Source of the DNA: Massalongia carnosa
Lineage: Eukaryota
Direction: 5' to 3'
Length of the DNA: 64,000 nt
NCBI GenBank assembly: GCA_965645245.1
Contig: OZ287068.1
Span: forward strand, 2,418,001-2,482,000
Shown piece after piece: positions 8,006 through 49,348 of this stretch. The number at the start of each line of letters is the position of its first letter. Position 1 is the first letter of the stretch. Both the position numbers and the translations under genes were made by a program. The notes under the pieces were generated by a model, which had not been told where the DNA came from, made no database searches, and was given only the letters and a program-made list of their open reading frames with translations.

Positions 8006-11000
8006 ATGGCGGAAGAAGTCAAAATCGACAAGCAGGTCTTCCATGATCGCCTTTCTCATTTCATTTCAGCATGGAAAGCAGACAAACGCTCAAATGACGC
8101 GCTGTTTGGAGGAGTGGGCTCGATTGTAATATTGATGGGAAAGAATGAGGAAACCATCACTTTCCAGAAGAATAATGCCATACATGTATATTCAAAGCCA
8201 ACCTGCTCTCTCAAGCTACCAAAGCGGTGGCTAACAAACCCCTAACTACAGTTCTGGCTTCTTGGTTATGAATTTCCAGCAACGTTGTTGCTCTTCACCA
8301 CGGAAATACTTTATATTGTTACCACGGTCAAAAAAGGTACTTGATCAGCGCTTATAAAGGTCTACTTATTAAGCTAATCCAAACGCGCCAACTCAGCAAA
8401 GCATCTTGAGCCTCTGAAAGGGGGCAAGGTTCCCATCGAGATTCTTGTTCGTGGAAAGGACATAGAGCAGAACGCGAAACATTTCAGAAGATGCCTAGAC
8501 GTTATTAAAGACGCAGGGGTAACTGATACAGAGGTGGCTTGAACCATGAGATCCGCTAATACGGCCTCAGAAAAAAGTTGGAACAATCGCTAAAGATACT
8601 TCAACTGGCCCATTCATCGACGAATGGAAGAAGACTTTCGGTGATATCTCTAAAGATGTAGAAGAAATGGACATTACCACTGCTCTCTCTGCTGCAGCTT
8701 TGGCTGTCAAAGATGAGAATGAGCTTGTGAGTCTTTTCATCTTTTGTGATCAGGCCGGTACAGTAAAGGAGCCCGCTGACCTTTGGATTAGCGGTCTATG
8801 CGTAATGCTTCACGAGCTTGCACAGGCCTTATGGCGGAGTTCTTCGTTGAGGAAATGTCTGAAATTCTGGATGAAGAGAAAAAAGTAACGCACAAAGATC
8901 TTGCAGACAAGATCGATCAAAAAATCGACGACGCAAAGTTTTTCCAAACACTCAAGTCGAAGCTGCCGGCGGATTTCGACTCAAGTCAACTTGACTGGAT
9001 CTATGGCCCAGTAATACAAAGTGGTGGTAACTACGATCTAAAGCTGACTGCACAATCCGATACGAACTCTTTACACGCCGGAACCATAATAGCTGGCCTA
9101 GGTCTTCGCTATAAGAGCTACTGTTCAATGATTGCTCGTACTTATTTGGTAGACCCAAATGAGTCTCAGGAGAGCAACTACAAACTTTTGTTAAGTATTC
9201 ACGAAGCTGTGCTGAAAGATGCCAGAGACGGGGTTTTGGTCAAGGATCTCTATCACAAGGCCATCGGCATCATAAAAACTAAGAAGCCGGAGATGGAGAA
9301 GCATTTCTTAAAGACCGTTGGGGGAGGAATTGGTATCGAAACACGAGACACTACTTTAACCATCAACGCAAAAAACACTAGAACACTCAAAGATGGAATG
9401 ACGCTCTGCGTCTCGACTGGTTTCAGCGATATCGAGAATCCGTCCCCTCAGGATAAGAAAAGCAACTCCTACTCGCTGTTCATCGCAGACACTATCCGGA
9501 TCAGGAGAGATCAGGATCCAGCTAACTTTACGAGTTCTGCTGCGTCCGATCTTGGAGCAACTTCTTTCTTCTTCAAAGATGATGAAGAGGAAGAGCCAGC
9601 GGCCAAGGCGAAGCCCAAAAAGGACACTAAGGTCGGCGCAGTGGCAGCCAGCAATATCACAAAAACCAAACTTCGTGCGGAGCGAAACACCCAAGCTGAT
9701 GAGGGCGCAGAAGCTCGCCGTAGAGAGCATCAAAAGGAGCTTGCGGCCAAAAAGCAACAAGAAGGTTTAGCTCAATACAGCGAAGCTGTCGGTGACGAAA
9801 ACGGTGTGGCTCAGAAGAAGTTTAAGAAATTCGAGTCCTACAAACGGGATAACCAGTTTCCATCACGAGTCAAGGATCTAGTAATCCTGGTTGACGTCAA
9901 GGCAGCTACCGTTGTATTACCAATCATGGGTAGACCTGTCCCTTTTCACATAAACACGATCAAGAATGCTAGCAAAAGCGATGAAGGGGAGTTCGCATAT
10001 CTGCGCATTAATTTTCTATCTCCTGGGCAGGGTGTGGGCAGAAAAGACGATCAGCCGTTTGAAGATGCAACTGCACACTTTGTTAGAAGTCTTACTTTCA
10101 GGTCTAGAGATGCCGACCGGATGCAGGATATAGCGCAGCAAATCACCGATTTTCGGAAGAACTCCGTTCGTCGGGAACAAGAGAAAAAAGAATTGGAAGA
10201 TGTTGTCGAGCAAGATAAGCTTAGCGAGATTCGAAGTATGTATGGAAGAATTCTCCAGCCAACAGATGCTAACCGGTCTAGATCGTAAACCGCATCGGCT
10301 TGACAACGTGTTTGTTCGACCAGCTCTAGATGGCAAACGCATGTCTGGCGAAGTCGAAATACATCAGAATGGACTACGGTATCGCGATCCTCGTGGAAGC
10401 AATATCGATATTCTCTTCAGCAATGTTAAGCATTTGTTCTTTCAACCCTCGACTCATGAGCTGATCGTCATCATTCATGTCCATCTCAAGAACCCTATTA
10501 TGATAGGGAAGAAAAAGGCAAAAGACGTTCAATTCTACCGTGAAGCCACAGACATGCAGTTTGACGAGACTGGAAACCGGAAGCGAAAGCACAGGTACGG
10601 CGACGAGGAAGAGTTCGAGCAAGAGCAAGAGGAGCGAAGACGAAGAGCATTGCTCGACAAGCAGTTTAAGATTTTTGCGGATAAGGTGCAGCAGGCCGGG
10701 CAAGAAAATGTCGGTGGGGTTGACATACCGTTCCGAGAGCTGGGATTCAATGGTGTCCCGAATCGATCCAATGTGCTTTGCCAGCCTACCACCGACTGTC
10801 TCGTCCAGTTGACCGAGCCGCCTTTTATGGTCATCACCTTGGAGGAGCTGGAAGTCGTTCATCTCGAACATGTCCAGTTTGGGCTGAAGAATTTCGACAT
10901 GGTCTGCGTGTTCAAGGACTTCCACCGTCCTCCCGTTCATATCAATACCATTCCCGTTGAAAGCTTGGAATCCGTCAAGGAGTGGCTCGACTCGGTGAAC

Positions 11001-11372
11001 ATTGCCTATTCCGAAGGTCCGCTGAACCTTAACTGGGGTACCATCATGAAGACTATCATAGCGGACCCACATCAGTTTTTCGCCGACGGGGGATGGGCTT
11101 TCTTGTCCACCGAGTCTGATGACGAAGATCAGGATGAAGAGGAGGAGGAATCGGCGTTTGAGATGTCGGATTCGGAAGTGGCGGCATCGGACGAATCATC
11201 CGAAGACGAATCGGACTTTGACGATGACGCATCTGCCGACGAGGGGGATGCAAGCTTGGACGAGGAGAGCGGAGGGGAGGATTGGGATGTTTTGGAGAAG
11301 AAGGCAAAGAAGAAGGATCGTGAGGGGGGGTTGGACGACGAGGAGGAAGGCTCGAAAAAGCGGAAACGCTAG
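8006..11372 (+). CDS. SPT16: FACT complex subunit Spt16/Cdc68, 6 exons
   Basis: [75 protein letters not shown] and an acidic C-terminal tail. Introns near 8186-8251, 8337-8396, 8519-8570, 8727-8791 and 10237-10281. Confidence 0.97.
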
Positions 11373-20119: not shown

Positions 20120-20175
20120 GAGTGCTATGTACGGAGTGCTATGTACGGAGTGCTATGTACGGAGTACTATGTACG
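20120..20175. repeat. Tandem repeat (GAGTGCTATGTACG) x4
   Basis: Three perfect units and one with a single substitution. Confidence 0.95.
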
Positions 20176-20667: not shown

Positions 20668-21681
20668 AACAACCAGTCTCGTCATCAATGGCATAATTCA
20701 AGGAAGTCATTCGTGCGAGATCAGGTCATACCCCCTCATGTCAATGGACATGGACATGGTTCACTTTCTCACAAGTTTCAGTCATCTGTTTCAGTCATCT
20801 GCTCCTTCCACACCCGCACTGGACTGGATCCAACATCCCTTGTTGGTAGCGTACATACTACCGTAGTCACCGGATGGACGTCGGTTGATGAGTAATATCA
20901 GATTCCCTATCAACCGGTGGAAAAGGAAAGAAAGCTCCGGAGGGATCCGTACGACGATTAGTGAAAGATGGACGAGATAGATTATGATGCACGTGATGTC
21001 GTGATATCTTGACGCTCCTGTCCATAATGTGACGATATCGTTGGAATCTATACTACAGAGTATGAGTTGCATGAGTGTTTCAAGTGTTTGCCTCATTTTC
21101 TAGCTCTATCAACGGTTGTACCTTGCTCGAAACTCTTCAGGCCCTGTATACTCGAAAGGGAAATACCCAAGTTTCCTGCATCAACGCTACAATGGAATAT
21201 CTATATCCTCAGGAGTGTATAACCTTGCAGTCTTCACCAACACAACGCTGTTGCAAGACGTATACTCTGTTGCCTCTTGATATGATTGATATGGTTTCTT
21301 TAAACCAACGAAAAGGGCATTTTCTCAACTCTCGTAAAGTTTCCATGCCCTAATGGCGCCATTGAGGAAAACCCTCCCTGCTACGGTGACTCGCCGGCTA
21401 GTATGAAAGTGTCGAGGAGTCTGTTCACTCGGACGTGTCTTTGGGAGGTCCCTCCAAGAAATATCTTTGGCATCTCATCTCCGTGTATGTCTTGTGCGCC
21501 GCATCTCATCGACTCACATCTCGCGGTTGGAGCCTGCATAAAAGCTGTACCGCTCTTATCATGAACCAAACACCTCAATTGACAGCGTTTGATCCAGTGA
21601 GCTGTATCTCCATCTCAAATCCCCCCGGTCGATGGATCTCCTAGGTGGCATCCTGATTACTGCATGGCTAACCGTGAGATA

Positions 21682-22130
21682 ATGACAGACGAGCAGCAGC
21701 ACTATAGACGGATCCCCGGTGGAAGCCCTCGCCTGCGGCTTGGAGCTTCAAGAAATACGTCGCCGGCAAAGTGCCGAGCGGGCTGTTTACTTGCACCGTG
21801 GCACCCTACCGTCCCGTACGACTAGAGCGAGAAACGTACAAACAGCTTACTGTCTCCATCGACGCTGGCCTTGGGAATGGAACGAGGATGGCACGCTTAC
21901 AACGGAAGGAGTAAGTCCATCGCCGCCTAGCCTCCAGGGTCTCAATCAAACTAAAAGGAGACAATGCAAGCTCCGAAAGCGCGAATTTGTGCCCAAGTGG
22001 CCCATGCGTCCTTCGGGGAAAGCAGCTACCCCGGCAGCGATGGAACAGGTAAACTTTTTGCATTATTTTTCTAGCCCCCATCCTGAGGGAAAAAGCAACT
22101 TTGCTAAGCGTTTGCCAGTTCGAGCGTATG
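21682..22130 (+). pseudogene. Possible degraded fragment of a fungal hypothetical protein
   Basis: EFVPKWP...FLHYFSSPH...AKRLP resembles a motif recalled from uncharacterised fungal proteins. No clean gene structure. Confidence 0.3.
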
Positions 22131-23304
22131 ACTCAAGTCGTAACGTGCATGAGGCAACCCCGATGCGCCGTTTGCTCCGCAACGTTCGATGCAAACGGCG
22201 CCATTGGGGGAATCGTGCCTCGCCTCTGTTGCTGCACGCCCATGTGCGTGGTCTGCCACGTTATAAGTTTGGAGGGGCCCAGCAGAGCGTGTATGGTGCG
22301 CGGGATGGTCGTGCCCCAGGGCTAGCGGTCAGTTTCCGTCAGGGTGGATAGGGGGAAATCTTGTGTTGCCAGCATCATCATCATCAACCTAAAACCACTC
22401 TCCTACATTAACTTAGCTAAGTTACTCTATCTTCATCCCCAACACTCCCGCTACCCTCCCTCCCACGCAACGTCAACCAAACTCCCACCGTTCCGCTAAA
22501 TACCCCCCTGTCCTCCTCCTCCTCCTCCTCCTCCTATCCCCCCCCCCCTTTCTCGCGTGAACCCAATATAGCGAGAGAAAGAAAAAGACAAGCCACCCCC
22601 CTTTTTTACTCCCGGATCGCAGCGAGGGGCTAAGGTATCTACCTCGGGTATATATATCTACCTATATACCTCCTATAATCAAAACCAACTGTACCGAAAC
22701 TTTGGGAGAAGGAACTTGATGGGGATGGGGTGGGATACGATGGGATAACGGACACATATAACACGTAGCTAGGTGAATAGGTGGGTGCTCTGGATACAAG
22801 TAGGTTAAACAGATAGATAGATAGACGGACAAGTTGATTGATTAGTTAAGTAAGTAGGTAATTAAGTAAAAATTAGATGAATGTCGTTATCGTGTTACCT
22901 AGCTAGGTATCTACAACACCTCCCCGTTTCCAAAACCCCCAACCCCCCAAACTCCTTACCTCTTATCCCAAGTTCAATCACAAACTTCATATCTCTTCAC
23001 TCTCTCAGTCCTTAATTTCTCAACATATACCTATCATAACAAAAACCCCCCGTTTTAAAAAATAACAACAACAACAACAACAACAAAATAAACAGAAGAA
23101 AAAAAAAGAGATTTCATTATATATATATATAGATATGAATTCAACGAGTTGATCGACTTAGTTGGAAAATTAGTGAATGAATGAGGCTAAGTATGTAAGT
23201 GAACCCCCCCGTCGTCGTTGTCGTCGACGAAACTGTTTTTTAAACTATGTATCGCACCCGAAAACGAACGATTGATTTTTCTTGTTATGGGACTGTGTTG
23301 GTTC

Positions 23305-23307
<3 letters not shown>

Positions 23308-23340
<33 letters not shown>
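23308..23340. repeat. (TG)n microsatellite
   Basis: Read directly. Similar simple repeats at 12265-12288 (AC) and ~45900-45920 (GA). Confidence 0.95.
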
Positions 23341-23344
<4 letters not shown>

Positions 23345-24048
23345 TTCATGTTTTTGTTTTCTGGTCCCCCGCAAGGGAGGGTTGGAGAAATGGAAGCGTT
23401 ATTTTCTCCTCAAATCACTCATTTCACTCACCCCCTGTTATGCCCAATAGTGCTTTTGCAAATTCTGTAGGTAGATAGATAGATAGATGCGAGAGAGTAA
23501 CTATAGATGAAGAGGGCAAGGGGGGGGGGGGGGGTGGTTAAAAAAAGGTACACCTATGAAAACTCCGTCGTGGGCCTCGGGTTTGGCCGGTTTATTTTTT
23601 TCGTACTGATTCTAGGAGATAGAAAGGTCCGGGGGAAAACGAATCATCAGGCTCAGGAAAGGTCGGGTTAGGTCAGGGCAAGCGGGTTATCATTCTCTCC
23701 TATTCCTATCCCTATTCCTTGCGCGATCGCCATTCAATGAACCGCTTTGTGCATCAACTCGGCAGCAAAACCCCCTTTTTCTGGCACTTATGCTTCAGCA
23801 ACCCCCCCTCGGACCGAAGATCTTACAAAACATGCACAGCTGAAAAACGAAAATACTCATAGCGCCACTATGCTTTGCTCCTTCCTTCCCTTTCAACACT
23901 TGCCCAACGGGGATGGTGGTTTTTTTATGCGGATTTGATGGTGTGCATGAAGAATGACGATGAAGAAGATACCAGTGCGTATGGTGAAATCTCTCAATCT
24001 AGCGCCTGCCGTTTTTTTGCGGGATCGAACGAAGGTGATGAGGGCGGT

Positions 24049-25082
24049 CTAGTTGGCGCAAACCGCTTGGATGTGGCCAGGCTGCTTGCATTTGTAGCAA
24101 ACGCGCTCCGTGCTTGGTTCCGTAGGGCAATCGCGGCTCAGATGACCAACTTCACCGCCTGCGTACCATTAGTGTCCGGATGGATCTGACAAGGTTTCTG
24201 CAACAAACGTACAGTTGTAACACTTCTGGCCTTGAGTGCAGTCGCGAGACAAATGGCCGTAGCCACCGCAAGAATAACAGTTCTGTCCTTGGCGCCCTCC
24301 CGCACCAGCGCCATAAGCACCCCCTCCGCCACCACCGTATCCCGCCTGAGCCTGGTATCCGCCGCCGTATCCACCTGCACCGGCTTCATTGCAGTTGCGA
24401 GCGATATGGCCGACCTTGCCGCACTTGTAGCATTCCTGGCCACCACCGCCACCGCCTCCGCTAGAGTAGCCGCCTGCACCAGCACCAGCGCTCATACCTC
24501 CTCCTCCGCCGGCATTGGCGCCAGGGTTGGAGCAATCACGCGAAATATGGCCAGCTTCGCCGCAGCGGTAGCAAGACTTTTCCTTTTGCGGCGCGTTGCA
24601 TTCACGGCTCACATGGCCTTCTTCGCCGCAGTTATAGCAGGTTGGTGTGCCACGCTTTGGGCAGTCGCGGGCCTGATGAGAGTTATCACCGCCTATTTGG
24701 AGAAACGTTAGTATTGGCAGTGATGTAAACTTCCTTGAAAAACCTGGTACTAGAAAGCAGAAGCATCTTTATGGGTGGGTTTTCTGCGAAAAAGAATGGT
24801 AAAGCACAGCGAAATAGTATCTCTTGCTATTGCTTTACAATCATCGTTGCTTCCCAAATAAAGACACCATATCGAGCGGTTGGTTATCAGGAAAAACCAC
24901 ATATCGATCAGCACAGACCGCATGGTTTTTGAGCACATAACAATCAAGGGCCCTTGATATCGCCATCCACGAAAAAACGCCGAAAGATCAAATAGTTCTC
25001 ATGAAAGGAAATTGTGTGGAAAAATCATAAAAGAGTACTAACAATTGTAACAACCGCGTCCGCCTGGCGCCTGATAATCCAT
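24049..25082 (-). CDS. GIS2: CNBP/Gis2/Byr3-like CCHC zinc-knuckle RNA-binding protein, 3 coding exons
   Basis: ATG at 25082 ([13 protein letters not shown]). Seven CX2CX4HX4C knuckles with Gly-rich linkers. Intron 24693-25042 and a 5' UTR intron at ~25103-25204. TAG at 24049-24051. Confidence 0.92.
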
Positions 25083-30941: not shown

Positions 30942-31938
30942 AGGGTTTGCGCTATGGATGAGAATGAGAGCTATTGACAATGCTGGGGGGGGGGGGAGGG
31001 GGGGGTTAGGAGCTGCGTGATTGGACCTGATGTGACTTTTCGGCCCGTAGTAGCTACGTAGCCATACATATCATTGGACTTCTTCCCCAACTCCTTCGTT
31101 GTATAGAACCTGCATTTTCCTGCGTGAAATAGATAAGTATGTTGCTCTTCTTAGGCAGAAAATAAAAATAAAAGAACGAAACATTTCCCCCCCCCGATCT
31201 TCCTCACTCAAACACTTTATCACAAAAGGACATGCTATCTAACTTATCTTCCGTCTCGATCGGTACTTACTTGGTTGATCGGTTGCCTGATACGCAGTAT
31301 GTATATAATTATAAGCAGAAAATTACAGGGTTTGGGTTTTCGAGGAGTTGGTGATGTCAAATGTTAGAGAGGTTGGGCGAAATGCGCGAAGGATTCGGAG
31401 AAGTTTCGGAGAAGTCAAGAGGGGGAGGGGGAATCGAAAGTCAGGGGTACTTGAGCCCAGGATGATTCAGTTCGTTCATGACTGTCTTATCCTATCCTAT
31501 CCTACACGTATCCGATTCGGAAGGGGGAAGGCAGTTCCGCTTTGTTCTACCCTATAAACCTCTTCCCTCAAAAGACCCAAACAAAAAAATCTTGATAATC
31601 GTCCGCGCACACGAAAATAGGGAAGGAGGATTTCATCGCAACATTCATTACAATATTTACATCTCTAGGTAACAAAAGAAGCACATGGCATGAACTTGCT
31701 CACTTTTCTTGCCAAACGTGACTTCCAACATCGTTCATGAAGACAGAAAATATCCGGCTACCCGAAAAATGCCCGTCCTGCTACATTTCGACGTTAGCTG
31801 CTTATAAGTCCCGGGTTTTCCATAGCGCTGCTCCAAAGCTCCAAAGAATTTCTTTTGGCGACTATATTTCTGCCGTCGTGGTTCTGGTATCGTGAGAACA
31901 GGGCGTTTAAAGATCCTATCAACAAAGTATATCTTTCC

Positions 31939-34807
31939 TTAAGACGTCACCCTTTGGTAAAAGAGCAGATAGGCAACCTTGTTGTCTTTAACAGAGGAAC
32001 GGCCGATCGGAGTCATCTTTCCAGAGGAGTTTATCGGCGTAGGAGTTCCATCAGCTACTCCTGACAATTTCTTTTTCGTCGCTCCTGAAGCTGAGGCCGC
32101 GCTGGTAACCTGGTTCCATCCCTTTTCGGACCGAGATTGATCCTCACCTTCCGAACCAAGTTGATCATAGACATTGCCGCTCAGGGCATGGCCTGATTTT
32201 TGTTGCTCAAGCGCTGTAGCAAGAACCTTTGGGTCTTCTTCGCAGCCTCCTTCAGCAACATCTTCACTACGAACGCGGCGGATAACAGTATCGTCTAGCC
32301 GAATCCACTCGCGCCCATCTTGCCTTCGGACATCAACCGTATAATGCCCTCCGCTGGCGTTTTTACCATGGTGGTAAACCACGCCAATAAGACGATATTT
32401 AGGGATCCCTCCGTGAGCCAACAAACCCCCCCTTCTATGTTGGGCGAAAATTTCTTTAGGAAGATCCAATTCCAATGGATAGCCAATTTTCTTCCAGATT
32501 TTTTGGGTGCCTCCAGCGTTATCGTACTGAAAGCGTTTTAAGTGAAGAATCAAGACTTGTGGGAGGCTTTCGATTGTCACTTGTTTGGTCGCGATATACC
32601 CAGGCCCTCGAGGCGAGTTGAAATCCCCATGTAGAGTCTCGGGACGAGTTAATCCATTCAACGCGTCAATAATATTATGAACGTTGGGAGAGCCGATGTC
32701 GAGCTGTAGTGGTTGGTAGGGTTCGAAAGTCACCGAGTTTTTCATTCCTGGAACTCGTAACTCTGATCGAAGTTTTCCGCCAAATATTTTTGTGATTGGA
32801 GATTCCATTGCGATGGCGCCGGATGAACGCGTGATGGAAGGTTTTTGCTTAGGCCCAACTTCAAGCCAGCCGCTCTCACCCGTTGTGGTGGACTGGGTAG
32901 ATTCACTGATTGGAGACATGATTCCGTTGGTTGGAGTTGACGTGCCAGAAGAATTTGGTATAGACAGTTTCATCGCCTTGCTACATTCATCATGCATCTC
33001 CTCTAAAAGAAATCCTAAAAATTCCTCCGCATCTTGCTGATGCCCGCGCTGTAGGATTTTTTAGGAATGTCATATTTAGTGCGGAGTTAGGACCTACCCT
33101 CATGGAGGCAAACCGTGGTAATCGTCGAATAACTTCGTATACAAATTCAGGAATGAAAGCGTCTCCATACTGTTCAAGCTCATTGTCCTTCAGACGCATT
33201 CTTAGCTGTTCAACAGAGATCGCCGAGTCAATGATAGAAAATTCCCGAATAAAGAGAATCCTATTCAGAAATCAAGATTAGATATAACCTATTTGAATCT
33301 ATCCGACTTGACTCACATGGCATCTACAAGGGGCGTTTCAGTTTTGAAAGAGTGAACAGCTTGTCGGCCAATTCTTTCAAGAAAATCATAGAAGGGGTTA
33401 CAAAAGACAAGTATCTGTAGAACCTGTGCCGAGTTAACATACTTATCACATATGCTGAAAATGATGGATACATACCGAATTCATGTAACACATATTACCG
33501 GTATTGACGAGCCCTCTCGGCTCCACAAAAGAAACCTTTGCATCATCGTTAGCCTCCTCGACTTTATATGAGCTCAATGCTTCCGCCAAAGACGTGATCT
33601 TCGAGGTGGCCAGTCCATTAGATTTCCCTGCGCCATTGACCAGCTTTTTATCGCTGCTCTTGTTGCTGGGAATGGGCTGCGCTTTTGTTCGTACGAGATC
33701 AGCCCATGATTTGGGAGGTTTGGTGGATTGCAAAGGTTCGGCAACGGGGGATCCAAGGACGCTAGACACATCTATGTCACTATTTCGGGCTTCACTTTTG
33801 ATAGTAATATCAAGCTGTTTTTCATTGGAGGGTTCCCGGGGTTTAAAGGCCTCAGGGGCAGCGCCAGCTAAAGGCCTTTTTGATGCCCGTGGCGCCAAAG
33901 GGAAGTTGGGAATGATAGGTATGATGGGTAGTGGGTATGAGTTTAGACGACTCGAGCGCTTGATAGTTGAGCTGGTGTGTGGTTGAGATATCACTTGCCC
34001 CACAACAGACGAAGGCGTTGTAGGTTGCGTAGAATCATCTTCCGACGGAGCATGCGAGGTCGTAGGAGTTTCAAGGCTTGATGTTATAGGTTCTGGACCT
34101 TCAGGTGATTGTGTCTCTTGCGGTTGCTGCGATTCCTCCACGGCTCCGTCAAGATCGGGCAGATCATCACGAGCAGGTAATTCCACAGGCACATTAGAAG
34201 ACTGTGGAGCTGGTTTTCTCCGGCGCCGTCTTGGACCTCTTAATGGAAACGAACCGATGGTGAAGGAGTACCAGGGAAGCTTCGTTTCAGTTAGCTTTGA
34301 TACCATAATGATTTTTTTCAGAAAGATAATGCTTACTGGGGGGTAGTATGGCATGCGTTGACTAGGTGGAGGTGGTGGCATTAGAGGAGCAAGATGGAAA
34401 CCCGACCCATTCGTCGGCCCCAGTGGCAGGGCGTGTAAGGATGCGCTAGACGAAGACGGGGAAAGCATGTCTTGGTGAGAATGGACAGATGACGATGAGG
34501 CATGTTGTGTTGGCAGTGGTCGAGGCGGGAATGATGCAGGACTGTGATGCATTTGATATGGCACGTTCATCATAGGGGCATAGTGCGGATAGGGTCTAGG
34601 TACTTGGACTGGCATCTGCTGATACTGATACCATTGTGGGGGGTGTTGTTGCTGATACTGCTGGGGATGTTGGTAGGAATTCTGATAGCCGTGATATGGC
34701 GGGGCATAGTGAGAGGATCGCGCAAGAGGTGGATATGGAATATCAGATTGATGTCTTCCATTGTGAAGCGGAATAGCTGGCTGCATTGGGAGATGGGCGT
34801 TCATCAC
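31939..34807 (-). CDS. UBP3: Ubiquitin C-terminal hydrolase Ubp3/USP10 family, multi-exon
   Basis: Low-complexity N-terminus with LPWYS and PKSWADL. Cys box PRGLVNTGNMCYMNS, HQQDAEEFLGFLL, LHLKRFQYD and His box VVYHHGKNASGGHYTVDV. Confidence 0.92.
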
Positions 34808-35498
34808 ACCGAAGGAAGCCTCAATGGCTTCCTTTTACCGAAGGAGCAGCTGCCGCTGCCAGGGTGTTGAGCTTGAAGTCAAACTTCGAATAGGGACTGA
34901 GTATTTTCCAGATAACATCGGAAGACCAAACGCGACTGGGTTGGAAAGGGAGCCACGGCAGGATTGACGAAGGAGAAACAGATGTGGCCGACGTTCCCTG
35001 AGCTAGATTGTAAACCCCCAAGTCTCCACTAACTTTAGAAATCAGATCACTGCTTCAAAGCCTAAGAGAAGATCTAAGATGCCAAAACATATGCTCATAA
35101 AGCACAAGAGTAATACTCAGACAGCGAACCGACTACTGTAAGTATATGCAAGTTATGTGGGTGTAGAGAGGAAGGTGGTTGAGTTCTTAAACCTGTGGAA
35201 GGTAATTGGTTGAACAACAACGAACGTTTTCTTAACTAATACTCGGAGCGGAAACACGAAAGGTACAGGTTATGTAAGACGTGATTACGTAACCGAATCA
35301 AAAGGGAATCGGAAGACTCGATGACACTCTCCGCCCCTCCTCTGCAACTTAGAAACCAACCCCCGTCCTTTCCATCAAAGAGTCTTAACTCTCAACTTTC
35401 AAAGCAGAACAGACTCTCTAAAGCATCACTCGACTACCTAATCTCGTGATTTCATACTTACCGATCTAAATTTATGTCTATCGTCTTATCTCGCCGTC

Positions 35499-37890
35499 AT
35501 GTCTAATTCAGCACTTTCTTTGATTACTTCTAAGAACACTAACATTACTTCTCAAACTCCCCCGCCCTCCCAGGCACAATCTGGCTCATCTCTTGGGGCT
35601 GAAAATTACCAGCAACGAAGAAGTGGGGGCTCTGGCAGTTTTGGTGCGGGCGCCGCGTCTCGGGCTACACCCTTTGCTGCGAGAAACAATCAATCCTTTC
35701 GGAAGCAGCACAAAACCCAAAGACGATCTAGACTTACAGATGAGGATGCGGCAGCTGAATCTGTAAGCCAGGTTTTTAACAAGGGAGGTGTGAATCTGAT
35801 GCTAATAACGTTAATAGGCGGCAATGCAGTCTACCAGCAGCCGAAAAGGGCAAACATCGATCACTCATCTCATGACCTTTGCCTTGCCCCCTCGTCCACA
35901 ACATCACCAACATTCTCACTATGGTCGTAATACTCGGAGGAATCCAACGTGGGGCATTGGCTCCGGCTATCATGCAGTCGATAAGGCAAAGTATGCTTGA
36001 TCTTCACGTTCGGCTTGAGTGTAAGGCTTATAAGCATCAAGATATATTCACGCCAATTACCGCTTTGTTGTTAATCCCAAAGGTGATTATCATGCACAAG
36101 CGATGGATGCGGATGTGCATTTAGATTGGAACTCCGTTATGCAGATCCTGGTATCAGCACAGTCGCAGTCGGCAAACTGCCCAATTTGTTTGTCCACCCC
36201 TGTCGCTCCACGTATGGCCAAGTGCGGGCATATCTTTTGCCTGCCATGTCTTATCCGCTACATGCATTCCACCGACGACACAAGCCCTGTACCTGAAAAG
36301 AAGGCTAGATGGAAAAAGTGCCCAATTTGCTGGGATAGCCTCTATATCTCTGAAACCCGTGCAGTTCGTTGGTTTGCCGGACAAGAAGGTGTGGCTCCTA
36401 GAGAGGGATGTGACGTTGTTCTTCGATTGATCAGCCGAGAGCCAGGGAGTACTCTTGCGTTACCTCGGGATGGAGCCGAGACATTGGACAGGGCTGATGA
36501 CATTCCGTGGTACTTCGCTGCTGAAGTTATGGACTATGGGCGGGTTATGAAAGGAAGCGAGGATTATATGGTAGCACAGTACGAACGCGAAATCAAAGAG
36601 CTGCAGCAACAGGAACGAGAGGATGAGCTCATGTTTGGGGAAGAAACCCTGTGGACGAAGAAAGCGGTCTCGACTATCATGCATGCAATAGAAAAGCTGA
36701 AGGGAATCGGTAATCCACCCAGCGCGCCGCAGCAGCCCATCGAAAAGAAGCCAAAGCGCACTCCTATCAAGTTTCATGAGTCTTCTGATAGTGTTCCGGA
36801 CTATTTTCACGTTCAGCATGCTGCAAAGTCTGGTCAATCATTCTCTGGGAGCTCTCCTACCCCATTGAATCAAAACAAGGGAATGGTCTCAAGTGAGGCT
36901 GACAATGGATCAACTCCTCATACATCCGCTTTGTCTGCTCGGATCAATGACACTCATGGAACCAATTACCGCTCACTACCCCAAGCACAGGCCGTTCATC
37001 ACATTACCCCCCCTCAAAGAGCAAGCTACAATGCCGTGACTTCCCCCCCGCAAAAGGAGTTATCGTTTTACTTTTACGAAGCTTTACTTCATTACTATCT
37101 ATCCCCGCTAGACATTCGTATTCTTAAGACAGCCTTTGGAGACTTTAGTTCGTTTCCCTCAACAATTCTTCCCCGTGTCGAGCGAGTCTCCACGGGTCAC
37201 ATTGTTGACGATGAATTGCGGAGGCGAGCGAAATATTTAGCCCACTTACCTCATGGCTGCGAGGTGGGGTTTCTTGAGTGTGATTGGACTGATGTCGTGG
37301 TGCCCGAGGTCTTAAGTGCCTTCTCACCAGAGATAGAACGACGGCGTAAAAGGAATCGAGAAAAGGAATTGCGCGAAGAGAAAGAACGCGTTAGGGCCGA
37401 GAAAGAAGAGGATGATAAACGATGGGCGGCGGCGAGAAGGAAACCGCCCAGCACTACCCACGATACCCTGGCCAAGGCTCTTCCGCCCTTGGAGGAGCGG
37501 CTTGAAAGTTCCTCGATGGCAAACACAGTGGCAAGTTCCTCACCGCCGTGGGCCTCCTCGCGCAGACACAGCGGTTCTGCCTTTGCCTCCCTAGCTTCCC
37601 CTTCCACAAGCCCTGTTGTTTCCAGAACGGTGTGGGGCACCACCGCCGTTGTACGGACAACCTCCCCCCCGCTTCCCGTGACGTCCATAGCGCTTGAACC
37701 ATCCGATAATGATGGATGGCTCCAGGACTGGGAACAAGACTTAATGCAGGAAGAGGATCTAGTGACATGCCTCGAAGGCAGTTTCATTGATCACGAAAGT
37801 GCTCCGGCAGGGACTGCATGTTTGATTGGTAAGAAGAGAAAGAATAAGAAAATCACGCTCATGACGACGAATGCACGGCGAGGAGCCTGA
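35499..37890 (+). CDS. MAG2: RING E3 ligase Mag2/RNF10 family, 3 exons
   Basis: TSITHLMTFALPPR, YIHANYRFVV, C3HC4 RING CPICL...CGHIFCLPC...CPIC, YLSPLDIRIL, RRRAKYLAHLP and terminal KKITLMTT. Confidence 0.9.
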
Positions 37891-38634
37891 GATGAGATGG
37901 GTTCAGGTAGGTCGAGGGAAATTCCAGCAAGCACGTCTAGCGCCATGTACGTGTCTTGCTCAATTGGCATTGTAGCATATTTGGTCTAGGATCAGAACCA
38001 GCTTTAGATATCCAAGAGCCATGTGCTTGATATTGCCAAGAAGGCGAAGCCAATGTTTATGTCTTAGCTTTAGATCTCAGTATGCCGTGTCCTCTACTCC
38101 ATCATCTCTATAAAGGACATCAATTACCTTGCAGATATAATTAATGCTACGTTCAAGGATAAGGTTCGAGGACGAAGAACTCCGTGGGTAGGTACGTGCT
38201 GCCTATACGGATAGTTTTGCCTCGCCTGTTCATAACTCCAGTGTGGTTCGTGGTTGGTTGGATGAATCGCGTTGACATTCTTTGTTTTGTGCTACCTGCA
38301 TGTGTTCTGCTGACTGCGCATTTTGGGTATCTTTTTTGCTGTCGAGTCACCAGGTGCCCAAGCAGGAGCGTTGCGAAGTGAAACACAACTCCTCGGAAAC
38401 ACAATCGGAGGCAGTCCGCCTACTAATGTAGGATTGCTTAATAATAAACTCAGTAGTAACGTTTCGTGTTAACCTTCTTGATTTGGAAGTGCTTAGAACT
38501 CTCAAGTTTAGTATAAAGAAGATGATTATAGTCTTTTCTTTTCTATATTGCTGCGTTATAAGCTTTCTACTAAATCCGTTTTAAACCTCTACTATATTGA
38601 TCTTTTCAACGGTCCTATCTACGTCACTTTCATC

Positions 38635-39633
38635 ATGTCCGCTAATGCTCTCCCAAAGTCAATGAAAGCACTGATACACAATATCGAGACTCAGAAATTA
38701 ATTTTCACGTCTGTCGAGGTTCCCACTCCGTCCTCGGCGGAGTATCTGGTTCGCGTTCATGCTGTGACTTTGTCTGCCGGCGAGTTGTTCTGGACGAGAC
38801 CCGAAGAACTGACAGAATCCATTCCGGGCGTTGAATTCGCCGGCGAGGTCGTTACCTCTCCCCAAACATCCCGTTTCCAGCCGGGCGACGAGGTCTACGC
38901 TCGTACTACGTTCCCGCGGCCAGGAGCGGCCAGGGAGTATACTATAGCTTTGGAGCACGAATTGGCGCGCAAACCGTCGAACCTAACAGCGGAGGAGGCG
39001 GTTAGCGTGCCCATGTCGGCGGAGACGGCATGGCAGGCTCTGTTTGTTCATGGAGGTCTGTCCGCTCCCGAGGTTGGGAAGAAGGCAAATGAGAATAGAG
39101 GGAAGAGGGTGCTCGTGACCGGAGCATCGGGCGGTTGTGGCGTATGGATCGTTCAGCTCGCGAAAGCTGCAGGCGCCTACGTCGTTGGTACGTGCGGACC
39201 TCAGAACCAAGAACTCGTCCGAGGCCTAGGAGCGGATGAGGTGCTGGATTACTCGAAGACCGGGCCAAAAGCCTGGACGGAGGCGGATGAAGCGAGAAAG
39301 GTCGATTTGGTGGTAGATTGCGTGGGGGGCGCTTCCCTCGACGAGGCCTGGACTGCTGTCAAAGATGGCGGGCTGGTGCTGACCATTGCCCCCAAACCCG
39401 GTTATGCCCAGCCAACGAGACCATCCGAAGGCGTGGGGAGAGACGTCAGCGGTCGCTTTTTCATCATGACGGCGGATGGCAGTCAGCTTGAAAAAGTCAC
39501 GCGGTTGATTGAAGAGGGAGTCTATAAGCCTTTGGTAGATAGCGTGTGGAAATTCGAAGATTGGGAGAAAGCGTTGGAGAAGGTGAACGGAGGCCATGCG
39601 AGAGGGAAGGTTGTTTTGCGCATCAAGGAATAG
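38635..39633 (+). CDS. NADPH:quinone reductase-like MDR oxidoreductase
   Basis: Single exon. IPGVEFAGEV, VLVTGASGGCG, LGADEVLDY and GHARGKVVL. Confidence 0.9.
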   Translation: MSANALPKSMKALIHNIETQKLIFTSVEVPTPSSAEYLVRVHAVTLSAGELFWTRPEELTESIPGVEFAGEVVTSPQTSRFQPGDEVYARTTFPRPGAAREYTIALEHELARKPSNLTAEEAVSVPMSAETAWQALFVHGGLSAPEVGKKANENRGKRVLVTGASGGCGVWIVQLAKAAGAYVVGTCGPQNQELVRGLGADEVLDYSKTGPKAWTEADEARKVDLVVDCVGGASLDEAWTAVKDGGLVLTIAPKPGYAQPTRPSEGVGRDVSGRFFIMTADGSQLEKVTRLIEEGVYKPLVDSVWKFEDWEKALEKVNGGHARGKVVLRIKE

Positions 39634-40391: not shown

Positions 40392-42196
40392 ATGCCCCAG
40401 ACACGCGCTCAGAGCGGAGTCACCCCTAGGTATATGTGAACCCAATGCAATCCGGCCCTGCCCCCATCTTAACCACTCTTAACAAAGATTGATCGCTAAC
40501 TTAGTTATAGGAAAACCGAGCATCCTGGATACGTTGAGACGCCAACGTATCGTAGACGAACTCGTCAGTCAATTACTCCTGACATCCAGCATAGAGACTT
40601 GGACAGAAATGGATTCCTGAACGTGAACGGTGACGGAAAACTAAAAAAACTAAACGGTAAGCCTTCGAATCGACAGAAGACGGATGAAACTCCGAAGGCC
40701 AATGGCATCCTATCCAACGGCTCAGCACATAAACATAAGGAAGAGGGCAAGGACTCGCGTATAGATTACACCGGGCACTTTGAGTTTGGTGGCTCTTGGG
40801 GCGTCAGTGCAATGATGCTTGGTTTTCCAATGCTCATGTACTACATGTGGATCGGCGCAACGTACTACGACGGTCGCTTTCCGCTACCGTCCAAAGGAGA
40901 GAGCTGGGTGCAGTTTTCGAGGCACCTAGCGAACCTGATATATGAAGGCGCGTTTCCATCAGCAAAAGCTTGGACCATGTACTGGACCTTCTTCCTGTTC
41001 GAAGCTGTATGCTACATTTATCTGCCAGGCATCACGGTCATGGGGAAACCGTTAGAACACGAGGGTGGTAGGCGTCTCACCTACTATTGTTCCGGGCTAT
41101 GGTCTTTCTATGTCACAATTGGATTGCTGTTCGTACTCCACGTTACTGGATTTTTCAAGCTTTACACCATCATAGATGAATTTGGACCCCTGATGTCTGT
41201 AGCCATCATTTCTGGCTTTCTGGTTTCGCTATTTGCATATTTTTCTGCGCAATATCGAGGAGCGGAGCATCGAATGACGGGTTATTTCCTTTACGACTTC
41301 TTCATGGGCGCGGAGCTGAATCCAAGGATGTTCGGAATCTTGGATTTCAAGATGTTCTTCGAGGTCAGGTTGCCATGGTACATCTTGCTCATGGTGACAT
41401 GTGCTACCGCAGCCCGCCAGTATGAGAAATTTGGCTGGGTTTCGGGGGAAGTGGCATTTCTCGTCATGGCCCATTTCCTATACGCGAATGCTTGCGCAAA
41501 AGGAGAAGAGTGTATCGTCACCACATGGTAAGCAAAAGGATCAACTCTAAAATTTTTGGAGGTTTCTCACCGATCATAAGGGATATGTACTACGAGAAAT
41601 GGGGTTTCATGCTCATCTTCTGGAACATGGCCGGGGTTCCGCTAAGCTACTGCCATTGTACACTTTACTTGGCGAACCATGCCCCTTCGATGTACCGTTG
41701 GAACCGCTACGCGCTTGTCCTGCTGTACATTTCCTACCTCGTTGTGTACTGGATCTGGGACACCACCAACAGCCAGAAGAATCGTTTCAGGCAACAAGAA
41801 CGGGGTACGCTGCTGGAGCGGAAAGCTTTCCCCCAGCTGCCATGGCAAACGGTCAAAACCCCTAAAACCATCCAGACCAAGAGCGGCGATGCGATTCTGG
41901 TGGACGGATGGTGTAGGTTTCCCAATCCGCTCGACTCGTTGGTCGGTATACTTATCCAAATTGCAGATGGCTATGCGCGCAAGATACATTACACCGCCGA
42001 TCTCTATTTCGCCTTGACCTGGGGTCTGATTACGGGCTTCGATAGTCCCTTTCCATGGTTTTATCCCATCTTCTTCGCAGCCATGATTTCTCATCGCGCC
42101 ATTCGAGACATACAGCGGTGCCAAGCCAAGTACGGGGAGGCGTGGGAGGAGTACACGAGGCAGGTCCCGTATCTTTTCATACCATATGTATTTTAG
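40392..42196 (+). CDS. ERG4: Delta24(24(1))-sterol reductase, 4 exons
   Basis: [58 protein letters not shown] and [15 protein letters not shown]. Introns at ~40430-40510, 41528-41580 and 41912-41967. Confidence 0.95.
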
Positions 42197-42801
42197 CCCG
42201 TCGATTTGGCTTTTTTCTGTATTTCGATGTGTACAGGGCGCTACCACATCGTACACGTGTGGTTTAGGATATCATTGTTAATCTGTAATGTTAATCCATC
42301 GGGATACCCCTGGCTGCTCCATCTGATCCCTTCGACGTACCCTGTGCTGTCTCATTGTCGCAGCGATGAAGGAACGATATCTGCTATGCTCAGGGGTTTG
42401 AACTATCGGGACAGGCCACCCCTGCATCACTGGCCTCCCAAGTCCATGATAGACCTTATGAGAAATGATCGTAACACCAAAGAAAGGGGGTTAGGCTGAC
42501 GGTATCGAGGATGTCACATGATTTGATTAACGTCAAAGAGGAGACGAAAGGGATAGCTGGGTGGGACGTGAATTGAGCAACTATCAAACATTACTGTTAC
42601 TTCCGGCTGTTGGAAAAAGGAGAATTCCTATCACTAGGTCCCTTTCGTTGATTTCGGAGGTTTCGGGGAACCGAACCCTAGAGTTACAAGCAAAGTTTAG
42701 ATACTTATATATCGCCCATCTCTTCTCCCGGGCCGCTCCTGCTTGACTTCTCCCCATCCGCCACCTTTCCCCTTTCCCGGACTAACTACCTATTCCCAAA
42801 C

Positions 42802-44187
42802 ATGTTGATCACCGAAAGTTTTCAAGATGTCTCCACCCACGCCGACGGGAACGGAAGTATTAGTATGTACGGAGTACCTACATACCTACTAGTTATTGAT
42901 CTTCTACCCCACAAAACAAGCCGCGTGAAATTTGGCTAAACGGACTCTCTACTAACTCCCCCCCCCCTTTTTTCTCGCAACAGGAATCTTCATCTTCCAT
43001 CCCACCGTCCCGAACTTCCCTCGCGCCCGCTTCCCTGGCGTGGTGGTGTTTAGTGAAATTTATCAAGGCAAGCTTAACATACATACATATCCACACCCAA
43101 ATCCTATCTAATACATATACTGGGACACGCGAAAATGCCCTTTCGTATCTACGTATAAAGGCTATCTATACCAATTAAGTTTACTAATACACGCATATTT
43201 AACCAGTGACGGGCCCCGTGGCGAGGTTCGCCCGGCAGATAGCGGGGCATGGATATATTGTTGCGGCGCCGTCCTCGTACCACGAGTTCACGGGCCCGGA
43301 GCCCCTCGAATATGACGGGCCCGGCACCGATGCGGGAAACAAGTGGAAGGTGGAGAAGGTAAGCTGGGATACTTCTATTTCCTCCTCATTCCCCGTTATG
43401 TCCCACATATACCTATATACCTACATGTGTATCTCACCAACCCCCCCGTAAAGAAACTGTCCGCCTACGATGAAGACGCCGCGCTGGCCGTGTCCGCGCT
43501 CCTGCACCTGAAAACCTGCAACGGGAGAATCGGCGCGACGGGCATGTGTCTGGGCGGCCATCTAGCCTATCGCGCCGCACTCGACGCGCGCGTGGCGGCC
43601 GCGGTGTGTTACTTTGCAACGGATCTTCACGGGCGTTCGCTCGGGCTGGGTATGCGGGACGATAGCCTGGAGAGGGCGGGTGAGGTTGGGGGGGAGTTGA
43701 TCATGGTGAGATGGTTTTCTTGTCTTGTCTCATCTTGGCTCCGCTCCGCTTGGCTGTTTCGTCGTTTTGGGGGGAAGGGGGAAGGGAGAAGGGGGGGGCT
43801 TATGACTTTTCGCAGATCTTCGGCAAGAGGGACAATCACGTTCCCCCCGAGGGGCGGGACTTGATCCGGAAGACCCTACACGAGAAAGGGGTCTGTTTCA
43901 GCTTCTATGAAGTGGCTCACGCACAGCGTTAGTTTCCCTCCCCTTTTTCTTCTTCTTTTTTCAGGGGTAAATGAATGCTCTGCGGGGCCTGCTTATTTGT
44001 TGCCGTCATTAACTCTACGTACTCATACATAGACGCCTTCATCCGCGACGAGCTTAGCAAAGGCCGCTACGACCCCGCCGTGTCGGGCGTCTGCTTCCAG
44101 ATGCTGCTGGAGCTGTTTGGGCGCGTGCTGAACGTGGATCTGGGGCCGCGTGATGGAGGGGAGGTGGGCGGGGAGGAGGGGTGTTAG
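42802..44187 (+). CDS. Dienelactone hydrolase family protein, multi-exon
   Basis: MLITESFQDV, VVVFSEIYQVTGPVARF, nucleophile motif GMCLGG, IFGKRDNHVP and AFIRDELSKGRYDPA. Confidence 0.9.
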
Positions 44188-47104: not shown

Positions 47105-49348
47105 TCAAATTGTCGGATCCATCTTCATTATGTTCATCATGTTGTCTTCGTCATTAAGCTCCTTCGCCCCTATTATTTGATTTCTCTTCCGATTTGGCGA
47201 CATCGGTAATAGAGCCGGTCAGATGGCCTTCAATATCTTAGCCCGCTCAAAGTCGATCACTACGACCCGCTTCGTCTCCTCATTCCAAAGTAAGTTCGAC
47301 ATTCGTATATCTCGGTGCAAAACCCCAGCTCCGTGAATGGCATTGACTGCGTGGACCAGGTCGGACGTCCACATCTGCCGCTCCGTGCCGTTGGGTATCC
47401 TGCTGCCATACAGACACTCTCCGGATCAGGACAAGAGCAACATGTGAATGATACAAATTCCTGCATCGTAGTAGTACGGTTTATTCAGGTCAATATTACC
47501 TAAACAGACTGGAACGTAAACTCCCTGGACTGTCATCAGCAGCCGATAGACCTCAGCTTCGTGTCGAAGGTCCTTCACAAAAGCCAGGACTGTCCCTTTG
47601 GCCAGTAGCGTGTATCCGTATGACGTCAGCGTGACCATGAAAAGAGCTCCTCGGGCGCCCTGCTTTCCCAACGGCTGACAAGCGTCACTTCGATTCTGCC
47701 GAAGCTGTACTTCCAGGAGCATCCGGAATTTCTCACCATCGAGCTGATGCCGATCGCCCTGATGCCATTTCTCGCAGTGGTTCGATAAATTCGGGCAACG
47801 ACGGTCAAGCGGTCCTCCTCGAGCCAGTCATTGCAAGCATGATTGCGTACAGAATGAACGTCTTTGGTCTCCGCGCGAGGAAGAATTTGCGCCTCGCGGA
47901 GGACGAGCACGCTGACTTCCTATGCCGCGTATGCGGCCTTGAGGTCGAGATGGAGTATCGTGTTGAAAAGATTCATCATCAGTCGGGGGGGGGGGGAGTC
48001 CTGGTCGTCATTGAAAGTAGTATTAGACACTGAACGACAAGAAACCTTCCTTGGGCGGAGACGTTGACGAATGGGAGATCGGACGAGAACGTCGAGGCTG
48101 TATGTTTGCGAACGATATTCACGGTGATTTTTCTGCAGTTTCTGGAGTTTCGGGGATTTCCTTGAGAATGGCGATATAATCCACCTCCCAGATTTCGAGT
48201 GCGTCTATGAGATCCTCACGCCATTCCCAATTTCCTTGAGCTGACTCAAGAGCAAGGATACTGAAGGCTAAGACTTGACTGATGGCAGTGCGATGCAGGT
48301 AATCATCAGTGCTTGTAAAATCTTCGTTCTGCGCGTTTACGTCCCTGTTGGGTTCGGCCAAGTGATAATAGGCTATCTTCACATTATCCTCCAGCTTGAT
48401 ATGAAGGAAAACGAAAGCCTCTCCCGTGGTGATATAACCATACTGAGTTCCGCTCCTAACCATGTAAGAAAAGGTCTGGGTCACGACGGCGGCCACCAGT
48501 CGTGACCGGCATGATATTCAAAATGGGTGACGGTGCCCTCTGGTCCCGGCATCCAGACCCAGTTGATAAAATGGTCTACCTCCATCTTGGCACGACCAGG
48601 GTGAAGGACCTGGCGCAGCACGGCGAGTGTGAGCTTGTGGGGTGGTTTGTACTCAACAACAAGGGCCGGCTTCCGAAGGCCCTCCACCGTAGTGTAGACA
48701 CAAATCTGATCTGGCCGGGGACGAGGTTTAGAAAGGACAGGATGGTGAGGCGTGGAAGGTTGCAGGTGTTGAGCTTCAAGCCTCTGGGCAACTTCCTCGG
48801 CGTCATCGCTCAAGGCATTCATATGATTATCAAATGTAATTCCTCCAGTCAGTCCAAACTCACTTTGCATGTCATCCAGGGACTGCAGATGTTCCACAAT
48901 TAGGGTAACCGGCGTTTCCACAACTTCTCGTTGAAGGTTCTGAAGGTCGTTCTCACTCGCCTGTTTCCGTGACGTCACTCTTGCACCAAGAGTCTTGATG
49001 AAATGGCTGCTTTCGAAGACTCTGGGCATGTTATCGAGTGGATAGAGGGAATAAAGCAGCTCTAAAGTTTCCTTGTGTTTCGAGAAAGTCTTCCCACGAA
49101 TGTAGATAGTCCGGACGGATTTTGGCCTTCGCATTGCTGGGATCTCCTTGAGTGCTTTGAGACTTGACAGTTTGAATGGATATCGACTTCGACAAATGTT
49201 CATGACAGAGATCAAGGTATTCGATAAGGGTGGTTTGGCGAAGGCCCCGTTGGCCTTCTTGTTCGCGCAGTTCTGCTCGTTCTCGCAGCTCTTGCTCTTC
49301 TCGCAACAGTTGCCTTAATTCCTCGAGCTCCAGCGAATGTCGTGCCAT
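47105..49348 (-). pseudogene. Spok-family (spore-killer-like) nuclease-kinase gene, disrupted
   Basis: Coiled coil, then TTLIEYLDLCH, nuclease RPDQICV...VEYKPPHK...TQTFSYM...YGYITTG, Cys cluster FCTQSCL...CPN..H, and kinase GKQGARG...AKGT...HEAEVY...LHRDIRMSNLLW...IDFERA. Frameshifts near 49075 and 48497. Stops at 48119, 47828, 47426 and 47219. Confidence 0.85.

What the first reader, a model, noticed from the sequence alone, without database searches (positions are those of the whole stretch)
31939..37890. Writer and eraser of 40S ubiquitylation share one divergent promoter (UBP3/USP10 and MAG2/RNF10)
Seen: the two ATGs face away from each other across 691 bp (34808-35498). Established: RNF10/Mag2 monoubiquitylates uS3 in ribosome quality control and 18S non-functional rRNA decay, and USP10 (Ubp3 family) removes 40S ubiquitin marks. 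Inference: a co-regulated E3/DUB gene pair that fixes their stoichiometry. The CNBP/Gis2 translation regulator lies ~7 kb away.
Basis: partly seen in the sequence, partly recalled or inferred. Interest (0 to 1): 0.7.

Follow-up and report, generated by a model that had tools for sequence, protein, structure and literature searches.

The report
Ancient head-to-head UBP3–MAG2 gene pair
In this lichen fungus the genes for an enzyme that tags the small ribosomal subunit with ubiquitin and one that removes the tag sit back to back, an old arrangement kept in most filamentous fungi examined, but it may owe more to such gene pairs being hard to break than to a need to balance the two enzymes.

Summary
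Observation confirmed. Intact single-copy UBP3/USP10-type (884 aa, minus) and MAG2/RNF10-type (762 aa, plus) genes face apart across 694 bp (not 691). The pair is old: consecutive locus tags or accessions in 21 of 22 comparable assemblies, and head-to-head in 30 of 38 informative metagenome species clusters. It changed twice on the tree, against 8 times for the co-directional MAG2–ERG4 junction. S. pombe keeps the orthologues two loci apart.

Selection for fixed stoichiometry is not shown:
- After UBP3 left in one Dothideomycete clade, an unrelated hydrolase became MAG2's head-to-head partner and stayed (6 of 7 clusters).
- Unrelated genes (SPT16, ATG8, ERD2, a NOP2-like gene) share the ancestral block.
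- Ubp3's cofactor Bre5 is unlinked, and budding yeast separates the pair.
- The GIS2 link is lineage-restricted.

The spacer holds a conserved GCCCCTC motif nearer MAG2. In 11 of 11 Dothideomycete relatives a 54–59-nt hairpin lies just before the UBP3 start; its model does not hit this window, whose leader folds well but differently. No RNA data. Verdict: a new member of the known class of conserved fungal divergent pairs; co-regulation plausible, untested.

The parts
31939..34804 (-). UBP3/USP10-type deubiquitylase gene, 5 exons, 884 aa: Pro/Gln-rich N-terminus, USP domain with Cys and His boxes intact
35499..37890 (+). MAG2/RNF10-type C3HC4 RING E3 ligase gene, 3 exons, 762 aa
34805..35498 (.). 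694-bp divergent spacer holding both 5' leaders and promoter(s); relatives 454-1986 bp, median 866
34806..34867 (-). Structured stretch just upstream of the UBP3 ATG, with a perfect 9-bp inverted repeat at 34812-34834; z -2.8, 2 of 200 shuffles fold as well; not matched by the Dothideomycete hairpin model
35332..35339 (+). CGCCCCTC motif 167 nt before the MAG2 ATG; its GCCCCTC core is in 10 of 19 thinned spacers (0.5 expected; no shuffled set reached it)
35279..35292 (+). ACGT-core elements; relatives often carry CACGTG here (9 of 19, 1.2 expected, p 0.06 after correction)
40500..43864 (+). ERG4/ERG24-family and dienelactone-hydrolase (DLH) genes, the rest of the ancestral UBP3-MAG2-ERG4-DLH block; here a zinc dehydrogenase gene (38512-39633) lies between MAG2 and ERG4
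8792..11372 (+). SPT16, a member of the same ancestral block in S. pombe (SPBP8B7.19) and two genes from UBP3 in some Lecanorales loci
24169..24768 (-).

Best explanation
UBP3 and MAG2 were already near neighbours in an ancestral ascomycete block that also held unrelated housekeeping genes. In the Pezizomycotina classes sampled they are an immediate head-to-head pair with a spacer of usually under 1 kb. The junction lasts because a compact divergent spacer carrying MAG2's conserved promoter motifs is a poor place for a rearrangement break, whoever the partner is. The two genes probably share open chromatin and are loosely co-expressed (inferred), and their products probably write and erase the uS3 ubiquitin mark as in yeast and human cells (from literature, not shown here). 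The linkage is not needed to set their ratio. Shown: gene identity, orientation, conservation, break counts, motifs. Inferred: shared promoter use, co-expression, cause of retention.
For: Head-to-head kept in 30 of 38 informative clusters with 2 changes on the tree; co-directional MAG2-ERG4 kept in 13 of 33 with 8 changes. In the clade that lost UBP3, DLH is head-to-head with MAG2 in 6 of 7 clusters. S. pombe has spt16 (.19), ubp3 (.21), an ER-lumen receptor gene, P8B7.23 and atg8 together; in this genome SPT16, ATG8, the best Nop2-family hit and one of two ERD2 hits all lie on the pair's contig, the last three 0.26-0.70 Mb away. PMC2871058 reports that divergent pairs with short spacers are the best conserved in fungi and lists 51 top pairs, many unrelated in function. 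Motifs lie nearer MAG2 in all 19 occurrences. Budding yeast: UBP3 = YER151C, MAG2 next to YLR426W, so different chromosomes.
Against: Of the genes in the ancestral block, it is the functionally matched pair that stayed adjacent, and it stayed close even in S. pombe. The same paper finds that conserved divergent fungal pairs are enriched for shared function. The DLH control is one clade and a shorter time span. GCCCCTC is absent from 7 of 7 spacers that lost UBP3, though 6 are one clade whose UBP3-keeping relatives also lack that exact form. No genome-wide background for head-to-head pairs was computed.
Confidence: 0.58

Rival explanations
1. One reading: selection keeps the pair on one bidirectional promoter so that writer and eraser are made in a fixed ratio, setting the threshold for 40S ubiquitylation and decay.
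For: Only 2 breaks on the tree; 21 of 22 assemblies adjacent; conserved spacer motifs across three classes; in human cells the USP10:RNF10 ratio is proposed to set the threshold (bioRxiv 2021.04.20.440649, passages); yeast Ubp3 removes uS3 ubiquitin (PMC5704183, abstract).
Against: An unrelated partner is kept equally well; the obligate cofactor Bre5 is unlinked; separated in budding yeast; co-directional with a gene between in S. pombe; human RNF10 is raised on stress by uORF control of translation, so the ratio is meant to move (PMC12008924, passages); PMC5704183 names Hel2, not Mag2, as the ligase opposed by Ubp3.
Confidence: 0.25
2. Coupled transcription, uncoupled translation: the pair is transcribed together, while a stable stem-loop before the UBP3 start codon makes the eraser's synthesis depend on scanning capacity, so the writer:eraser ratio shifts under initiation stress.
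For: UBP3 leaders (-80..-1): 15 of 26 with z below -1.5, against 1 of 34 MAG2 leaders. Dothideomycetes: 11 of 11 carry a 54-59-nt hairpin ending 17-27 nt before the ATG, -30 to -36.5 kcal/mol; 95% of cells paired, 0 of 500 shuffles as high, G-U changes favour the UBP3 sense strand. Window leader z -2.8. The fungal SDC hairpin represses its gene in a reporter (PMC5640933, passages).
Against: The signal is mostly one class: mean z Dothideomycetes -3.4, Lecanoromycetes -0.9, Leotiomycetes -0.3, Eurotiomycetes 0.0. The model finds nothing in the window or other classes. Only 2 of 20 pairs show two-sided change, which shuffles match (262 of 500), and 10 never vary. That the hairpin lies in the mature mRNA is not shown. 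It says nothing about why the genes are linked.
Confidence: 0.12
3. The functional match is only apparent: in filamentous fungi Ubp3 acts mainly on other substrates and does not oppose Mag2, so the pair is plain synteny between unrelated genes.
For: M. oryzae Ubp3 is reported to act on ribophagy and Smo1 (PMC9599802, passages); yeast Ubp3 was tied to 60S rather than 40S turnover.
Against: Both proteins are intact, single-copy members of their families; the opposition is shown in human cells and Ubp3 acts on uS3 in yeast.
Confidence: 0.05

Closest known systems
Conserved divergent gene pairs of fungi (PMC2871058, Table 1 and Table S2: RAD7/RAD16, RPL21/RPS9, ARPC4/UBP6, MCM2/mlo2)
   Same: Head-to-head orientation, spacer under about 1 kb, kept across Pezizomycotina classes.
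   Different: Not among the 51 pairs of Table 1; searches of Table S2 found no UCH/zf-C3HC4 row, but unnamed rows could hide it. Shallower than those pairs: S. pombe keeps linkage, not the orientation. The products are opposing enzymes, not subunits of one complex.
RNF10-USP10 (human iRQC) and Mag2, Ubp3 (yeast 18S NRD, uS3 deubiquitylation)
   Same: Same two protein families, with RING and catalytic residues intact.
   Different: There the genes are unlinked (yeast; human: recalled) and RNF10 is tuned by uORFs. No conserved uORF was found before fungal MAG2 (upstream ATG in 13 of 34 leaders, scattered).
SDC motif (PMC5640933) and RPL12 5' UTR structure (PMC8216456)
   Same: A conserved hairpin upstream of a fungal coding sequence; SDC represses expression.
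   Different: Different gene and sequence; the UBP3 hairpin is longer (20 modelled pairs with bulges) and so far seen only in part of the Dothideomycetes; it is not among the motifs named in the passages read, and Rfam has no match in the window region.

Membership tests
UBP3/USP10 deubiquitylases | USP (UCH) domain with intact Cys and His boxes behind a long low-complexity N-terminus | tested here: met
UBP3/USP10 deubiquitylases | Orthology: single copy, best relatives named UBP3/USP10 | tested here: met
   62-80% identity over the last exon to proteins named UBP3 or hydrolase 10; paralogues in the own genome 29-38%; a chordate USP10 cluster scores 0.91 for a lichen homologue. No tree with yeast or human sequences was built.
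UBP3/USP10 deubiquitylases | Binding to Bre5/G3BP and removal of uS3 ubiquitin | not testable with these tools
   A Bre5-like gene exists on contig C3; no solved-structure match to exon 2
MAG2/RNF10 ligases | C3HC4 RING with the family's flanking and C-terminal conserved blocks | tested here: met
   32% over 584 columns with S. pombe P8B7.23, E 5e-95; homologue named MAG2
MAG2/RNF10 ligases | uS3 monoubiquitylation activity | not testable with these tools
   literature only
Conserved fungal divergent gene pairs | Head-to-head, short spacer, kept across classes | tested here: met
Bidirectional promoter | Two start sites close together driven by shared elements | not testable with these tools
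   no RNA run listed; motifs sit nearer MAG2
Bidirectional promoter | Co-expression above other neighbours | not testable with these tools
   no expression data
Functionally selected cluster | Retention above same-orientation background | tested here: inconclusive
   above the co-directional neighbour (2 against 8 changes) but matched by the unrelated DLH-MAG2 head-to-head junction (6 of 7); no genome-wide background
Dothideomycete UBP3 leader hairpin (model R1) | Match of the window's leader to the covariance model | tested here: not met
   no window hit at E up to 10 over 66 sources

The most novel reading that the evidence does not exclude
The locus is a genomically wired rheostat for 40S ribosome quality control: writer and eraser of uS3 ubiquitylation are co-transcribed from an ancient shared promoter, and an undescribed stem-loop before the UBP3 start codon lets scanning ribosomes themselves set how much eraser is made, the fungal counterpart of the uORF control on human RNF10.
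Probability: 0.12. Interest if true: 0.72.

Novelty: new member of a known kind. Interest (0 to 1): 0.4.

Why it matters
The USP10:RNF10 ratio is proposed to set how readily cells destroy 40S subunits, but how the ratio is set is little known outside human cell lines. A natural head-to-head arrangement, a clade that lost it and a candidate leader hairpin give ready handles in laboratory moulds: one spacer to mutate and natural unlinked controls. If the linkage is only a hard-to-break junction, it is a clear warning that conserved eukaryotic neighbours with matching functions need a same-orientation control.

Tried and rejected
- Expression: no RNA holder listed. Contigs of two other runs laid on 33900-36400 showed no differences or joints; one may be the source sample. 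Neither result bears on expression.
- Sordariomycetes untested: no metagenome locus could be assigned to them. For M. oryzae only UBP3 = MGG_05996 and one neighbour, MGG_05995 (translin), were found; supplements gave nothing.
- Deep fungi: MAG2 accessions were found for Lipomyces, Protomyces, Pyronema, Synchytrium and others, but no matching UBP3 accessions, so they are uncounted.
- GIS2 as part of a module: rejected. SAE2, which abuts UBP3 here, is absent from all 30 loci with UBP3 and 3 kb or more beyond it.
- Conserved MAG2 uORFs: rejected.
- MAG2 as the 'RING finger 3' UTR' structure of PMC8216456: no class-wide conservation seen by eye in 42 3' regions; that paper's supplement could not be read, so it is not excluded by gene id.
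- A conserved N-terminal extension of UBP3: in-frame stops upstream in several relatives.
- One hairpin family across classes: not found.
- Rfam: no match in 31000-39000.
- A model-based tree did not finish; the FastTree tree was used.
- Earlier scan findings: none relevant.
- No complex prediction was run, since binding is not claimed.
Full report
1. The observation. The window comes from a lichen-forming fungus; the closest named MAG2 relative is from Pseudocyphellaria. Splicing at canonical sites gives two intact genes: an 884-aa USP-domain protein on the minus strand (34804-31939, five exons) and a 762-aa C3HC4 RING protein on the plus strand (35499-37890, three exons). Each has one strong match in the genome. 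Homologues are named UBP3 or ubiquitin hydrolase 10 and MAG2 or P8B7.23, and the RING protein aligns over its length with S. pombe P8B7.23. Orthology is well supported, though no tree with yeast or human sequences was built.

2. Conservation in annotated genomes. Among the top 120 hits of each of three searches, 18 assemblies showed a positional locus tag for both genes; 17 are consecutive and one (Xylographa opegraphella, 11 apart, contigs of different length) is not. Cluster look-ups added 4 of 4 in Leotiomycetes, giving 21 of 22. These span Lecanoromycetes, Candelariomycetes, Lichinomycetes in the wide sense, Eurotiomycetes and Leotiomycetes (class labels recalled). Tags show adjacency, not orientation, and hits are biased to close relatives.

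3. Conservation with context. One metagenome scan kept the best 80 of 380 confirmed MAG2 loci, which fall into 52 clusters at 95% identity. Upstream, 38 clusters were informative and 14 too short: UBP3 head-to-head in 30, a dienelactone hydrolase (DLH) in 6, something else in 2. Downstream, 33 were informative: ERG4 adjacent in 13, not in 20. On the MAG2 tree the UBP3 junction changes 2 times and the ERG4 junction 8 times (11 losses if it arose once). The order UBP3, MAG2, ERG4, DLH recurs in Lecanoromycetes and Penicillium-like loci, and its genes stay together in shuffled order in Leotiomycetes and Dothideomycetes, so it is the likely ancestral block. No Sordariomycete or Pezizomycete locus could be recognised.

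4. Controls that weaken the functional reading. (a) One break is a whole clade grouping with Elasticomyces and Cryomyces. Its relatives have DLH, UBP3, MAG2 in a row (L040, L072); in it UBP3 is gone from between them, and DLH has stayed head-to-head with MAG2 in 6 of 7 clusters. MAG2's 5' junction is durable with an unrelated partner, though this is one clade. (b) PMC2871058 (text parts 1-3 of 7; Table S2 searched and part 1 read; one supplementary file unreadable) shows that short-spacer divergent pairs are the best conserved in fungi and lists 51 top pairs, many unrelated, without this one. (c) In S. pombe ubp3 is SPBP8B7.21 (PMC3032702, passage), the MAG2 member is P8B7.23, an ER-lumen receptor gene is co-directional and atg8 convergent with it, and spt16 is SPBP8B7.19 (PMC3034197, passage); nop2 as .20c is recalled. 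In this genome SPT16 is 21 kb from UBP3, and ATG8, the best Nop2-family hit and one of two ERD2 hits lie on the same contig 0.26-0.70 Mb away. The deep linkage is thus part of an old block with unrelated genes, not two genes brought together. (d) The Bre5-like cofactor gene is on contig C3. (e) Budding yeast has the genes on different chromosomes. (f) GIS2, POF12 and SAE2 appear in only 2 of 80 loci, one cluster, which lacks UBP3; the flanks would not reach GIS2 in the window's own arrangement, but SAE2 is missing from all 30 loci with room for it.

5. The spacer. Lengths in 26 relatives run 454-1986 bp, median 866. Sequence does not align across six lichen species, but in 19 thinned spacers (-450..-120 from MAG2) GCCCCTC occurs in 10 against 0.5 expected, beyond the best word of any of 200 shuffled sets; TGACTC in 10 (p 0.01 after correction) and CACGTG in 9 (p 0.06). 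The species are related, so these p-values are optimistic. The window has the first motif at 35333-35339 and lacks exact copies of the other two. The motifs are always nearer MAG2, and TGACTC persists in 2 of 7 spacers without UBP3 (0.9 expected). Likeness of TGACTC to the Gcn4/CpcA site and of CACGTG to an E-box is recalled. They show a conserved promoter, not a shared one.

6. An unexpected element. The 80 nt before the UBP3 ATG fold better than shuffles in 15 of 26 species (z below -1.5), against 1 of 34 for MAG2, and the signal fades further upstream. By class it is mainly Dothideomycete (mean z -3.4; others -0.9, -0.3, 0.0). There 11 of 11 leaders carry a 54-59-nt hairpin ending 17-27 nt before the ATG at -30 to -36.5 kcal/mol. 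Of 219 cells 95% pair, no shuffle of 500 reaches that, and many changes are G-U on the UBP3 sense strand; but only 2 of 20 pairs change on both sides and 10 are invariant. The model built from them hits only those leaders, not the window or other classes. The window's leader folds with z -2.8 around a different 9-bp stem. Leotiomycete leaders share another small element with two possible helices, without a folding-energy signal. Rfam has nothing here, and the two fungal RNA screens read in passages name no UBP3 motif (PMC8216456, supplement unreadable; PMC5640933).

7. Mechanism. From papers: USP10 opposes RNF10 on uS3 and uS5, and their ratio is proposed to set the threshold (bioRxiv 2021.04.20.440649, passages); Mag2 is the RNF10 orthologue needed for 18S NRD, and human RNF10 is raised through uORFs (PMC12008924, passages); yeast Ubp3 deubiquitylates uS3, there against Hel2 (PMC5704183, abstract). 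The most likely account (0.58) is an ancient neighbour pair kept by the general durability of a compact divergent spacer, with loose co-expression as a by-product. Selection for a fixed ratio gets 0.25, a co-transcribed but translationally tuned module 0.12, and no functional link in moulds 0.05.

8. Novelty and score. Searches for the gene names with 'head-to-head' or 'bidirectional promoter', for Mag2 with Ubp3, for fungal gene-order work and for the S. pombe ids listed no paper on this linkage; the library lacks most subscription journals, and cluster databases were not searched. It is a new member of a known kind. A specialist in ribosome quality control would find it neat and testable, not startling, and the hairpin is a lead in relatives, not a property shown for this window. 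Interest 0.4.

Noticed in passing
L039:3654-3717 (-) and ten other Dothideomycete loci: Conserved 54-59-nt stem-loop ending 17-27 nt before the UBP3 start codon, apparently undescribed; candidate translational control element.
   Followed up: yes
L027:8635-8705 (-), L028, L030, L032, L035, L065: Leotiomycete UBP3 leaders have a G-rich arm that can pair either with an upstream arm or with a conserved arm touching the ATG; L030 shows a compensatory change. Possible two-state fold.
   Followed up: partly
L043, L049-L051, L053, L068, L069, L071, L080: UBP3 has left the block in one Dothideomycete clade, leaving DLH head-to-head with MAG2; whether UBP3 is kept elsewhere was not checked.
   Followed up: partly
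G000 contig C2, 2.43-3.15 Mb: Homologues of S. pombe's SPBP8B7 neighbours (SPT16, UBP3, MAG2, ATG8, a NOP2-like and an ERD2 gene) share one contig: a trace of pan-ascomycete synteny.
   Followed up: partly
literature ids: A Cryptococcus UCH gene is listed as divergent with fibrillarin, probably UBP3 (CNAG_06920), and S. pombe ubp3 faces nop2 (recalled): UBP3's head-to-head partner may often be a ribosome-related gene.
   Followed up: no
window 34280-34336 (-): UBP3 intron 1 is 57 nt, in frame and stop-free; retention would insert 19 residues just before a conserved Leu-Pro-Trp motif.
   Followed up: no
window 35474 (+): Out-of-frame ATG 25 nt before the MAG2 start opens a 10-codon ORF overlapping it; not conserved in position.
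   Followed up: yes
window 38512-39633 (+): Zinc-binding dehydrogenase gene between MAG2 and ERG4, seen in 0 of 80 related loci: a lineage-specific insertion.
   Followed up: partly
L039, L040, L052, L059, L073, L077, L082, just after the MAG2 stop: A shared motif of about 20 nt in Pleosporales-like MAG2 3' regions, seen by eye.
   Followed up: no
window 55845-61489 (+) and about 48400-55200 (-): A Ty3/gypsy-type retrotransposon with long open frames (RT, RNase H, integrase) next to a LINE-like element split over several frames.
   Followed up: no
window 18800-24100: About 5 kb without a recognised gene between the SWIRM and GIS2 genes, with a short tandem repeat near 19700-19850.
   Followed up: no
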